Shown piece by piece: positions 27,040 to 30,000 of a stretch of 64,000 bases of DNA. Made by a program: the position numbers. The DNA comes from Escherichia coli (GTDB lineage Bacteria; Pseudomonadota; Gammaproteobacteria; Enterobacterales; Enterobacteriaceae). The stretch lies in NCBI RefSeq assembly GCF_003334355.1, contig NZ_QOWP01000011.1; one strand, written 5' to 3'. Each line of letters starts with the position of its first letter. Positions within the stretch are counted from its first letter, which is position 1.

Positions 27040-30000
27040 TAAATCAGTCGCGCACTTTGTCCGCTTTTTCCCGGGCTTCTCGCTCGAGAGAGAAAATAAT
27101 CCGCTGTAATTGCCGCTCCACCGTCGGGCTGACGTTAAGAAAACGGAAGCTCAGACGGGGAGTGGTGATGGTTTCATTCTTGCCATCAATCACTTTGCGC
27201 TCGCTGATGGAGATTAACTGGGCGTCAAAGTGAAAAACACCCCATTGCCTCATGTTGACTTCAATCTGAGCGAAGCGCATGCCTTCTTGTAATTCGGCAG
27301 GCTTTGCTGTTTCCAGTAATGCGCCCATGCCGCCTAACGACAAATCATACAGGCGGAAACGTAACGTACTGTTATCCGCCAGTTTGGTCTGGCAAAAATA
27401 AGGCGGATGGAGTGGGGCGGAGATGCGGAAATATCGGCGTCGTTGTACAAACCATAAGGTGGGAGGCGGTACGGTGATAAATGCCGGAAGCTGCAAGTAT
27501 TCACTCTGCTGTAGTTGTTCAACAGTAAACTCGACTTTCGCACCCTGAGTTTCGGCGGTAATGGTAATGTGCTGTGCCTTTAGCACGGCGATGTTGTCTT
27601 CGGCTTGACTGCCGAAATCCAGCACCAGTTTATCCGGGGTTATTGCCAGTATTTTGCTGATCAGCTGCCCGCCATTCCAACTGAGACGCAAAGGAATTGC
27701 GGCTTTGTGCAAATCGCGTAACACGCCCAGGACGGCTAACGGATTTTGTTTCAGGAACTGCTCATGGTAATGACTCACGCGGAAAAACTCCTGACTGATA
27801 AACTGTCTTTGGTTTATCGGTCACAGTTAACAAAACTTAATACAAATGCGTGAATATTTTTTACATGTTGTTCTTAAATCAGCCGACATACGCCCAGCAT
27901 CGATCCCGCCCTTGCCTATACTTAGAGCGTTGACGTAAGCATTTCTTGCGTCCGATTCATCGAAACGAGGGCCTGAACATGGGAATTATTGCCTGGATTA
28001 TTTTTGGCCTGATAGCCGGCATTATCGCCAAGCTAATCATGCCGGGGCGTGATGGTGGTGGATTTTTCCTGACCTGTATTCTCGGGATAGTCGGTGCGGT
28101 GGTCGGCGGCTGGCTGGCGACCATGTTTGGCATTGGCGGCTCCATCAGTGGTTTTAATCTGCACAGCTTCCTGGTGGCGGTGGTGGGAGCTATTCTCGTT
28201 CTGGGCATATTCCGCCTCCTGCGAAGAGAATAAGATTTTCATAAGGCGGATAGCGATACAGATGCCGCTATCCGCTTTCACATCAGAACGTATACTCGAC
28301 ACCTGCTTTACGGGTGAAAAAAATCAATATAGCACTTCGATATCCGATAAAGTCGGTTCCCGGTAACAACAACAGAATCCTTTTTTAATTATTGTTTCGT
28401 TGTTTTTGGTGTGATTCAGAAAATAAATATTTTAGACAGTAGCCAGTCAGGCGTTAAAAATGGGGCGGATAGTGAGGCGGTTTTGGCTGCGCTTATTGAA
28501 CATTTAGAATTGATCAATCCTTCTGGCAGATTAAGCCAAAATACCCGTTCGGCAATGCTTCAGTTACGCGAAGAGGAATGGTCTGAATTCTTTTTTTGGT
28601 TGCTAAATTCTCTGGAGTGTCTGGATTATGTGATTATTAATTTAACTCCAGAAAGCAAAAAAACGTTGATGAGTGAACACCGTAACAATATTCAGGTAGC
28701 AATTGATGCTTTATATAGCCAACGTCGGCGTAAATCGCCGGGTGATGAAAGTGAAACACTTACCCGTAGAAATGACGCTATCTTCGGCAACCACGTATGG
28801 CAAACATTTGCGCAATACTTCCCGCCAGGACTTGAAAAACCGTCTGTGTAGAAAAAACCATAGCTATGGTGTTATCTGCCGACAACGCCATCCGGAGAAG
28901 CCGAATGACGTTGTCGGAGTAAGCGCTGGTTAAGGTGTGGGTTGTGCCTCTTTGGTTGAGGGTTGCGTCGTTGCTGACTTAACGGTCGGACGCGTCGCCG
29001 GAACATTGTCACACGGTTGCTCTTTCGGGCAGATCAAATCCAGCATTTTCAGCGTCACGCCATTGGTCCAGCCAAAGCCATCCTGTAATGGATATTCGCC
29101 ACCGCCGCCCCCCGTTCCGGTGGTGCTGACATCATATTTTTCCACCAGCTTTTTCTCCCGGTCATAGGTGTGCTGAACATTGGTCAGGAAGTGCCAGCTA
29201 ATGTCCATCGCCACCTCTTTTTGCCCGTAGTTTTGTAATCCTTCTGTCGCGACCCACTGTAACGGTGCCCAGCCATTTGGCGCATCCCATTGTTGCCCAC
29301 TTTTCACCGACGTGGTGTTCAGGCCGCCGGGTTGCAGCAGATGTGTTTTCGTCGCCGTCGCCATTTTGTTGGCGCGATCTTTCGCTGCCGCATTGACGTA
29401 CAGCGGGAACAGGGCGGCCGCGGTTAACTGATTGCGCACTTTATGACTTTTCAGGTCGTAATCGGCATACCAGCCTTGTTGATCGTTCCACAGGTATTTT
29501 TCGATCCCTTTTTGACGGGCATTTGCCAGCGTTTCGTACTGGTTTGCCATCGCGTTATCTCCGGCAGCTTTGCTGGCGCGGGCGAGGATTTTTTCCATTT
29601 TAAACATCAGGCTGTTCAGATCGACCGGTACGATGCTGGTGGTGCGTAAGGTATTTAACTGCTGCGGGTTGTCCATCCAGCGCGAGCTGAAATCCCAGCC
29701 AGACGCAGCGGCAGAGCGCAGGTCGCGGTAAATTTCAGTGGCAGGTCGATTCGGATTGCTTTTGGCGGTGGCAATATCTTCCACCCATGACTCTGGTCGT
29801 GGCGTATCGCGATCGTCCCAGTAGCGGTTGAGAAGGGTACCATCCTGAAGTTTTACAACGCGTTTTTCCTGTTGTCCGGCTTGCAGGTTTTCAACACCGT
29901 CCATCCAGTAAGCATATTCTTTTTGCATTTGCGGCAGGTATTGCTTCAACGCGGCATCGCCTTCATGCTGCGCCAGTAACTCTACCATCAGGGCAAAGAA

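What the first reader, a model, noticed from the sequence alone, without database searches (positions are those of the whole stretch)
27814..27839. Flagellar sigma28 promoter directly upstream of ycgR
Seen in sequence: the minus strand carries AAGTTT-N11-aCCGATAA, a close match to the FliA consensus. Established knowledge: ycgR encodes the c-di-GMP-dependent flagellar brake and belongs to the class 3 flagellar regulon. This links the window's c-di-GMP content (the pdeG EAL protein, the ycgR PilZ protein) to motility control.
Basis: partly seen in the sequence, partly recalled or inferred. Interest (0 to 1): 0.25.

Follow-up and report, generated by a model that had tools for sequence, protein, structure and literature searches.

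The report
Known FliA (sigma-28) promoter of ycgR

Summary
The minus strand at 27840-27814 reads TTAAGTTT-N11-ACCGATAA. That is 14 of 16 matches to the FliA consensus TAAAGTTT-N11-GCCGATAA, ending 35 nt before the GTG start of ycgR (27778).

The window is an E. coli chromosome, 99.6% identical to MG1655, and the 28-mer is identical to MG1655. The same 28-mer appears in Table 2 of Fitzgerald, Bonocora & Wade 2014 as a FliA ChIP-seq site:
- Its score of 67 is tied fifth of 52 sites.
- ycgR RNA falls from 104 to 0 in a fliA deletion.
- qRT-PCR gives 0.022 of wild type, restored to 2.0 by plasmid fliA.

RegulonDB lists the promoter as ycgRp. Two independent studies also place sigma-28 there.

In 12 species of 7 enterobacterial genera the two boxes are about 93% conserved, the 11-nt spacer only 55%. 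The best FliA matrix hit always sits 34-39 nt before the GTG.

Caveats:
- On sequence alone the site ranks only 4th-8th in the window.
- The +1 (G at 27807) is inferred; I could not retrieve a mapped start.
- The suggested link to pdeG is unsupported. The FliA-co-regulated phosphodiesterase is pdeH, outside the window.

Verdict: correct and already known; low interest.

The parts
27833..27840 (-). -35 element TTAAGTTT (consensus TAAAGTTT, 7 of 8); positions -33 to -26 relative to the inferred +1
   Evidence: Mean identity is 0.93 across 12 species, with T..AAG.T invariant. Two Escherichia species carry the perfect TAAAGTTT in the same register.
27822..27832 (-). 11-nt spacer TGTTAACTGTG; its length is conserved, its sequence is not
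   Evidence: Mean identity is 0.55 and there are no gaps in the 12-species alignment.
27814..27821 (-). -10 element ACCGATAA (consensus GCCGATAA, 7 of 8); the same octamer as the fliD promoter
   Evidence: CCGATA is invariant and mean identity is 0.94. The fliD site in Table 2 of PMC4183435 also reads ACCGATAA.
27807..27807 (-). Inferred transcription start (G), 7 nt after the -10 box; equals RegulonDB ycgRp +1, NC_000913.2 position 1243779
   Evidence: RegulonDB entry reproduced in a supplement of PMC4183435, with evidence codes HIPP/AIPP only. The ChIP-seq peak centre is the same coordinate. Starts of well-characterised FliA promoters lie 18-22 bp downstream of the motif centre. GA at 27807-27806 is invariant in 12 species. 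The start has not been experimentally mapped in any source I could open.
27779..27806 (-). The rest of the 29-nt 5' leader after the +1 at 27807, with Shine-Dalgarno AGGAG at 27792-27788
   Evidence: The Shine-Dalgarno block has 0.95 identity. The fold is not significant (z = -0.89) and there is no Rfam match.
27044..27778 (-). ycgR coding sequence (244 aa, GTG start): c-di-GMP-binding flagellar brake with PilZN and PilZ domains
   Evidence: ORF. Annotation. NCBIfam NF047947 scores 441 bits against a cut-off of 400. Pfam PF07317 and PF07238. The RRRYFR and DLSLGG motifs are visible in the translation.
27841..27862 (-). Conserved A/T-rich block AAAAAATATTCACGCATTTGTA abutting the -35 box (positions -55 to -34); possible UP element (upstream promoter element contacted by the RNA polymerase alpha subunit); function inferred only
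   Evidence: Mean identity is 0.78, against 0.53 for the neighbouring intergenic DNA. Runs of 4 or more A or T occur within 30 nt upstream of the motif in 8 of 15 strong E. coli FliA promoters, but not in tar, tsr or yhjH.

Best explanation
This is ycgRp, the class 3 flagellar promoter of ycgR. RNA polymerase carrying sigma-28 (FliA) recognises TTAAGTTT and ACCGATAA, set 11 bp apart. It most likely starts transcription at the G at 27807, giving a 29-nt leader followed by the GTG-initiated ycgR reading frame. [quoted passage not shown] The brake protein is therefore made only in cells that have flagella, alongside the stators, the chemoreceptors and the phosphodiesterase PdeH. YcgR then slows the motor when c-di-GMP rises. 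Shown by published data retrieved here: FliA occupancy at this sequence, near-total FliA dependence of ycgR mRNA, and complementation by plasmid fliA. Shown here: the motif, its placement and its conservation. Inferred: the exact +1, the FlgM timing at this particular promoter, and any role for the upstream A/T block.
For: Sequence: 14 of 16 consensus matches in the right orientation, 35 nt before the GTG.
Published in vivo binding: Table 2 of PMC4183435 lists TTAAGTTTTGTTAACTGTGACCGATAAA for ycgR with FAT 67, tied fifth of 52 sites, and a peak centre at 1243779.
Published expression: RNA-seq 104 falling to 0 (significant) in the fliA deletion. qRT-PCR gives 0.022 +/- 0.010 in the fliA deletion (p = 1.5e-4) and 2.02 +/- 0.55 with pBAD-fliA.
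Independent binding data: a sigma-28 ChIP-chip region at 1243433-1243882, which is window 27461-27910 (PMC3923258). An in vitro genomic SELEX (binding selection on genomic fragments) peak with sigma-28 holoenzyme lies in the ycgR/ymgE spacer at 1243852, which is window 27880 (PMC5493296).
Catalogue: RegulonDB ycgRp with +1 at 1243779.
Conservation: in 12 species of Escherichia, Citrobacter, Salmonella, Enterobacter, Kosakonia, Lelliottia and [Enterobacter] lignolyticus, the boxes are 0.93 and 0.94 identical and the spacer 0.55. The top leave-one-out matrix hit in every upstream region is at the aligned position, 34-39 nt before the GTG, scoring 14.6-21.4 against second-best hits of 9.4 or less.
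Population: the 122-nt promoter and leader is present at 95% identity or more in 5327 of 5426 complete E. coli genomes.
ycgR is named in the main text of PMC4183435 only in the introduction, the FliA section and Table 2. It is therefore not among that paper's FlhDC targets.
Against: No experimentally mapped 5' end for ycgR could be retrieved. The RegulonDB +1 carries inference codes only. The two TSS (transcription start site) tables whose held text I could search list no start at 27807; both were cut when stored, and they probably came from poorly motile cultures.
The matrix score is mediocre. It ranks 22nd to 40th among the 52 ChIP sites and 4th to 8th in the window. Three better-scoring sites in the window are not bound in vivo. 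Sequence alone would not have proved the case.
One TSS table assigns two weak upstream antisense starts to ycgR, at window 27978 (51 reads) and 28085 (5 reads).
Confidence: 0.95

Rival explanations
1. FliA supplies most ycgR transcription, but one or more extra sigma-70 or sigma-S promoters further upstream, antisense to the start of ymgE, also feed ycgR under non-motile conditions.
For: Cho et al. 2014 list minus-strand starts at 1243950 (51 reads) and 1244057 (5 reads) assigned to ycgR, which are window 27978 and 28085. An AATAAT hexamer lies 7 nt upstream of 27978.
Against: ycgR RNA is 0 by RNA-seq and 2% of wild type by qRT-PCR in the fliA deletion, so any such input is very small in those conditions. 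Read counts are low compared with 1385 for the divergent ymgE start. The sigma assignment in that table rests only on overlap with broad ChIP-chip regions.
Confidence: 0.1
2. The FliA dependence of ycgR is indirect, acting through another FliA-controlled regulator, and the motif is a bystander.
For: The matrix score is modest, and better-scoring motifs in the window are unbound.
Against: A high-resolution ChIP-seq peak is centred on the predicted +1. In vitro selection using holoenzyme alone gives a peak in the spacer. The two-block conservation with a variable spacer is the signature of direct sigma recognition.
Confidence: 0.02
3. The motif is a chance match with no promoter function.
For: 8 of 100 shuffled windows contain a match at 2 mismatches or fewer.
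Against: All of the experimental and comparative evidence above.
Confidence: 0.01

Closest known systems
RegulonDB ycgRp (ECK120009895), the sigma-28 promoter of E. coli K-12 ycgR
   Same: The 28-mer, strand, position relative to ycgR and inferred +1 are all identical. This is the same object in a different E. coli strain.
   Different: The window strain is not MG1655 (99.57% identity over 50 kb). It differs by one base in the leader (27799) and one in the ymgE-proximal spacer (27934), both outside the promoter boxes.
Canonical class 3 flagellar promoters (tar, tsr, motA, fliC, fliD, yhjH/pdeH)
   Same: The same two-box architecture with an 11-nt spacer. The -10 octamer is identical to that of fliD. 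The FAT score equals that of yhjH (67). mRNA is lost in the fliA deletion in the same way.
   Different: T replaces A at position 2 of the -35 box, and A replaces G at position 1 of the -10 box. This puts the matrix score in the lower half of bound sites. The site carries a conserved A/T block upstream that tar, tsr and yhjH lack.
UP-element-assisted sigma-D (sigma-28 family) flagellin promoter of Bacillus subtilis (recalled from memory: Fredrick et al. 1995)
   Same: An A/T-rich tract immediately upstream of the -35 box of a sigma-28-type promoter.
   Different: It has not been tested for ycgR. This is a lead from memory, not a result.

Membership tests
Sigma-28 (FliA)-dependent class 3 flagellar promoter | -35 box resembling TAAAGTTT | tested here: met
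   TTAAGTTT matches 7 of 8. It is conserved at 0.93 across 12 species.
Sigma-28 (FliA)-dependent class 3 flagellar promoter | -10 box resembling GCCGATAA, 11 nt downstream of the -35 box | tested here: met
   ACCGATAA matches 7 of 8 and the spacer is exactly 11 nt. CCGATA is invariant and the spacer length is constant in 12 species.
Sigma-28 (FliA)-dependent class 3 flagellar promoter | FliA holoenzyme occupies the site | tested here: met
   Published data retrieved here: ChIP-seq FAT 67 on this exact 28-mer, ChIP-chip region SigF_12, and an in vitro genomic SELEX peak.
Sigma-28 (FliA)-dependent class 3 flagellar promoter | Downstream gene expression requires fliA and is restored by fliA in trans | tested here: met
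   Published data retrieved here: RNA-seq 104 falling to 0; qRT-PCR 0.022 in the deletion and 2.02 when complemented.
Sigma-28 (FliA)-dependent class 3 flagellar promoter | A FliA-dependent transcript starts about 6-8 nt downstream of the -10 box | tested here: inconclusive
   The RegulonDB +1 at 27807 has inference-only codes. It fits the general 18-22 bp rule and coincides with an invariant GA. No mapped 5' end was retrievable.
Sigma-28 (FliA)-dependent class 3 flagellar promoter | Not directly FlhDC-driven (class 3 rather than class 2) | tested here: met
   ycgR is named in the main text of PMC4183435 only in the introduction, the FliA section and Table 2, so it is absent from that paper's FlhDC target list. 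Expression in the fliA deletion is 0 although flhDC is intact there.
YcgR flagellar brake protein (PilZN + PilZ) | Full-length match to the curated YcgR equivalog model and both Pfam domains | tested here: met
   NF047947 scores 441 bits against a cut-off of 400 over residues 1-243. PF07317 and PF07238 are recorded for near-identical proteins.
YcgR flagellar brake protein (PilZN + PilZ) | c-di-GMP-binding motifs RxxxR and D/NxSxxG | tested here: met
   RRRYFR and DLSLGG are present in the translation. The motif definitions are from established knowledge of PilZ domains.

The most novel reading that the evidence does not exclude
The 22-bp A/T-rich block abutting the -35 box (27862-27841) is conserved across seven genera. 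It may be a functional UP element or the site of an unrecognised regulator. That would explain why a promoter with a mediocre sigma-28 matrix score is among the most strongly occupied FliA sites in the genome, while better-scoring motifs in the same window are not bound. One such unbound motif lies 73 nt upstream of chaA.
Probability: 0.3. Interest if true: 0.25.

Novelty: already known. Interest (0 to 1): 0.07.

Why it matters
The promoter ensures that the c-di-GMP-responsive brake YcgR is made only in flagellated cells, together with PdeH, which keeps the brake off. This is a well-described node of the switch between motile and sessile life. Confirming it here adds no new biology. Its value is as a calibration point. 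A reader without tools identified a genuine alternative-sigma promoter. The matrix analysis shows that sequence score alone would not have separated it from unbound look-alikes in the same 64 kb.

Tried and rejected
**Search for a mapped ycgR 5' end**
- The Cappable-seq supplement is cut well before this coordinate and gave no hit.
- Kim et al. 2012 TSS tables gave no hit.
- Conway 2014 has no supplement held.
- Thomason 2015, Fitzgerald 2018 (journal version), Kroeger 2013 and Paul 2010 are not held.
- The Fitzgerald bioRxiv version has no supplement held.
- Zhao 2007 does not mention ycgR.
- A Salmonella ChIP-exo supplement lists only ycgR expression values.
- The Melamed 2023 supplement shows only the MotR* overexpression contrast for ycgR.

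**Ideas rejected**
- A CRP site in the upstream block. TGTAA-N7-TCACG has the wrong spacing and is not conserved in Salmonella or Enterobacter (alignment).
- A structured leader or riboswitch. The fold z-score is -0.89 and there are no Rfam hits.
- An alternative register for the -35 box, TAAGTTTT with a 10-nt spacer. It gives 2 mismatches instead of 1 and is contradicted by orthologues that carry a perfect TAAAGTTT at N11.
- Sigma-70 consensus scan. It found no sigma-70-type promoter between ycgR and 27980.

**Correction made during the work**
- My first offset to NC_000913.2 was off by one. It was corrected using the RegulonDB entry (notes).

Full report
**1. What is in the sequence**

The minus strand from 27840 to 27814 reads TTAAGTTT-TGTTAACTGTG-ACCGATAA. 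Against the FliA consensus TAAAGTTT-N11-GCCGATAA it has two mismatches in 16 positions.

The box ends 35 nt before a GTG at 27778. That GTG opens a 244-codon ORF running 27044-27778 on the minus strand. A Shine-Dalgarno AGGAG lies at 27792-27788.

The window is an E. coli chromosome:
- The 1.3 kb around the site is 100% identical to many complete genomes. It is annotated there as emtA / ycgR / ymgE.
- The window is collinear with MG1655 at 99.57% identity over 50 kb, so it is a different strain.
- The promoter 28-mer is identical to MG1655. The nearest differences are at 27799 in the leader and at 27934.

The ORF is YcgR:
- NCBIfam equivalog NF047947 scores 441 bits against a cut-off of 400.
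- Pfam domains PilZN and PilZ are recorded for near-identical proteins.
- The c-di-GMP-binding motifs RRRYFR and DLSLGG are visible in the translation.

**2. Is the match more than chance?**

It is the only site in 64 kb, on either strand, at 2 mismatches or fewer. Dinucleotide-preserving shuffles give a mean of 0.10, and 8 of 100 shuffles contain at least one such match.

I built position weight matrices from the 52 published FliA sites, leaving ycgR out. With these:
- The site scores 13.0 to 16.6 bits, depending on which sites were used for training.
- It ranks 4th to 8th in the window.
- It ranks 22nd to 40th among the 52 bound sites.
- Three sites in the window score higher: 46402-46429(-), 55174-55201(-) and 12650-12677(-). 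None of them appears in the published binding table.

On sequence alone the call would be plausible but not secure.

**3. Comparative evidence**

I collected the ymgE-ycgR intergenic region from 12 species. The genera were Escherichia (4 species), Citrobacter (3), Salmonella, Enterobacter, Kosakonia, Lelliottia and [Enterobacter] lignolyticus. Gene order (ymgE, divergent ycgR, emtA, ldcA) and the roughly 200-bp spacer are conserved.

Mean identity by block in alignment A2, as computed:

| Block | Mean identity |
|---|---|
| -35 box | 0.93 |
| 11-nt spacer | 0.55 |
| -10 box | 0.94 |
| Unremarkable intergenic DNA | 0.53 |

The spacer contains no gaps in any species. Two conserved boxes separated by a spacer of fixed length but free sequence is the footprint expected of direct sigma recognition.

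In every species the top leave-one-out matrix hit lies at the aligned position, on the ycgR strand, 34-39 nt before the GTG. These hits score 14.6-21.4 bits, against 9.4 or less for the runner-up. Two Escherichia species carry a perfect TAAAGTTT, and most non-Escherichia species carry a perfect GCCGATAA. This fixes the register.

Within E. coli, the 122-nt promoter and leader is present at 95% identity or more in 5327 of 5426 complete genomes.

**4. Published experiments**

Fitzgerald, Bonocora & Wade 2014 (PMC4183435) list exactly this 28-mer, TTAAGTTTTGTTAACTGTGACCGATAAA, for ycgR in Table 2:
- The FliA ChIP-seq FAT (fold above threshold) score is 67, tied fifth of 52 sites and equal to yhjH.
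- The peak centre is at 1243779.
- ycgR expression is 104 in motile wild type and 0 in the fliA deletion, marked significant.

Their qRT-PCR table gives ycgR at 0.022 +/- 0.010 of wild type in the fliA deletion (p = 1.5e-4). With pBAD-fliA it is 2.02 +/- 0.55.

Two independent studies agree:
- Cho et al. 2014 report a sigma-28 ChIP-chip region at 1243433-1243882, which is window 27461-27910.
- Shimada et al. 2017 found an in vitro genomic SELEX (binding selection on genomic fragments) peak in the ycgR/ymgE spacer at 1243852, using reconstituted sigma-28 holoenzyme alone.

The Fitzgerald paper credits Ko & Park 2000 for FliA-driven transcription of yhjH and ycgR ("predicted or shown").

ycgR is named in the paper's main text only in the introduction, the FliA section and Table 2. 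It is therefore not among the FlhDC targets and counts as class 3.

**5. Transcription start**

A RegulonDB table reproduced in that paper's supplement lists ycgRp on the minus strand with +1 at 1243779. The start is shown as the capital G in ...gaccgataaaccaaaGacag.... That is window 27807, 7 nt after the last A of the -10 box, which gives a 29-nt leader.

The evidence codes are HIPP and AIPP only, meaning inferred positions. No transcription-initiation-mapping code is given.

Supporting points:
- The ChIP-seq peak centre is the same base.
- Well-characterised FliA promoters have starts 18-22 bp downstream of the motif centre, and 38 of the 52 sites have such a start in dRNA-seq from motile cells (bioRxiv 10.1101/188474). 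That text does not name ycgR.
- GA at 27807-27806 is invariant in all 12 species.

I could not open any dataset with a mapped ycgR 5' end (see the tried-and-rejected field).

**6. Mechanism**

Shown by the data above: sigma-28 holoenzyme binds here, and ycgR mRNA depends almost entirely on fliA.

From established knowledge of the enterobacterial flagellar hierarchy: FlhDC activates fliA, and FlgM holds FliA inactive until the hook-basal body is complete and exports it. Class 3 genes then fire.

Applied to ycgR by inference: the brake is synthesised only in cells that already have motors. It is made together with the stators, the receptors and the phosphodiesterase PdeH.

When bound to c-di-GMP, YcgR interacts with MotA, FliG and FliM. 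This slows the motor and biases its rotation (review PMC13432727).

The leader shows no significant structure (z = -0.89) and has no Rfam match.

**7. The pdeG remark**

pdeG is in the window at 579-2102, but it is 25 kb from ycgR. It has no FliA site in Table 2 and none among my top matrix hits.

The EAL-domain gene that shares FliA control with ycgR is yhjH/pdeH (FAT 67; expression 511 falling to 2). It lies at 3.68 Mb, outside the window. The proposed thematic link within the window is therefore not supported.

**8. Extra anatomy**

A 22-nt A/T-rich block, AAAAAATATTCACGCATTTGTA, abuts the -35 box at 27862-27841 (positions -55 to -34). It is conserved at 0.78 identity. This is where the C-terminal domain of the polymerase alpha subunit would contact a UP element (upstream promoter element).

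I extracted 15 strong E. coli FliA promoters from MG1655. Eight of them have a run of 4 or more A or T within 30 nt upstream of the motif, including fliC, fliD, fliA, motA, ves and trg. tar, tsr and yhjH do not. A UP-like role is plausible but untested. It might explain the high occupancy despite the mediocre core score.

On the other strand, CTATACTTAG at 27916-27925 is a near-consensus sigma-S -10 region. It lies 7 nt upstream of the strong ymgE start reported by Cho et al. (1243901, which is window 27929; 1385 reads). In that study's rpoS comparison, ymgE signal is about 13.2 in one set of three columns and about 7.9 in the other. I assume these are wild type and the rpoS deletion, in that order. 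The two divergent starts are 122 bp apart.

**9. Verdict**

The feature is the already catalogued ycgRp. Novelty: already known. Interest is low.

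Noticed in passing
window 25370-25397 (-): TAAGTAAAACGCTGTCTCTGCCGCTAAT lies 47 nt upstream of the cvrA start, in the ldcA-cvrA spacer. It is a second published FliA ChIP-seq site in this window (Table 2 of PMC4183435). It is weak: FAT 2, with cvrA expression 43 against 28, not significant. The follow-up preprint attributes high background in its lacZ fusion to a nearby sigma-70 promoter.
   Followed up: partly
window 27914-27929 (+): A near-consensus sigma-S-type -10 region (GCCTATACTTAG) lies 7 nt upstream of the reported ymgE start at 27929 (1385 reads). It is conserved in Escherichia, Citrobacter, Salmonella and Lelliottia (0.83 identity). ymgE signal is about 5 log2 units lower in one arm of the rpoS comparison. 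It sits back to back with the sigma-28 ycgR promoter, with the two starts 122 bp apart.
   Followed up: partly
window 55174-55201 (-): TAAAAATTCGTAAAATGTTACCGATATC is one of the two top-scoring FliA matrix hits in the window. It lies 73 nt upstream of the annotated chaA start, in the correct orientation, and is identical in MG1655. It is nevertheless absent from the published FliA ChIP-seq list. It lacks the G of the -35 AAG, which is invariant in ycgR orthologues.
   Followed up: partly
window 46402-46429 (-), 12650-12677 (-), 8480-8507 (+): Further FliA-like matrix hits score as well as or better than the ycgR site. They lie inside lolB (sense strand), between ycgN and hlyE just past the 3' end of hlyE, and inside minD (antisense strand). 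None is in the published binding table.
   Followed up: no
window 27841-27862 (-): A conserved A/T-rich block sits directly upstream of the -35 box (0.78 identity across 7 genera). It may be a UP element. Similar A or T runs occur at 8 of 15 strong E. coli FliA promoters.
   Followed up: partly
window 27978 (-) and 28085 (-): Two weak minus-strand transcription starts (51 and 5 reads) are assigned to ycgR in Cho et al. 2014. They are antisense to the 5' end of ymgE. They may represent minor FliA-independent read-in.
   Followed up: no
ycgR alleles in other E. coli genomes (P0006, P0008, P0010; hit H1): Many E. coli genomes carry 280-290-aa YcgR variants whose C-terminus is frameshifted (EREARKKRTMCVTD...) and extended into the antisense strand of emtA. 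The variants are seen on 85-93 contigs each. One strain (600055) has an IS1 element splitting ycgR.
   Followed up: partly
L011; P0109: Likely assembly contaminants. A 381-bp contig labelled Staphylococcus cornubiensis encodes a YcgR fragment 96% identical to E. coli. A protein labelled as from the fungus Astraeus odoratus is 67% identical to YcgR.
   Followed up: no
E. coli genome search results: 12 of the roughly 5600 matches to this chromosomal ycgR region lie on records labelled as plasmids. I did not examine them.
   Followed up: no
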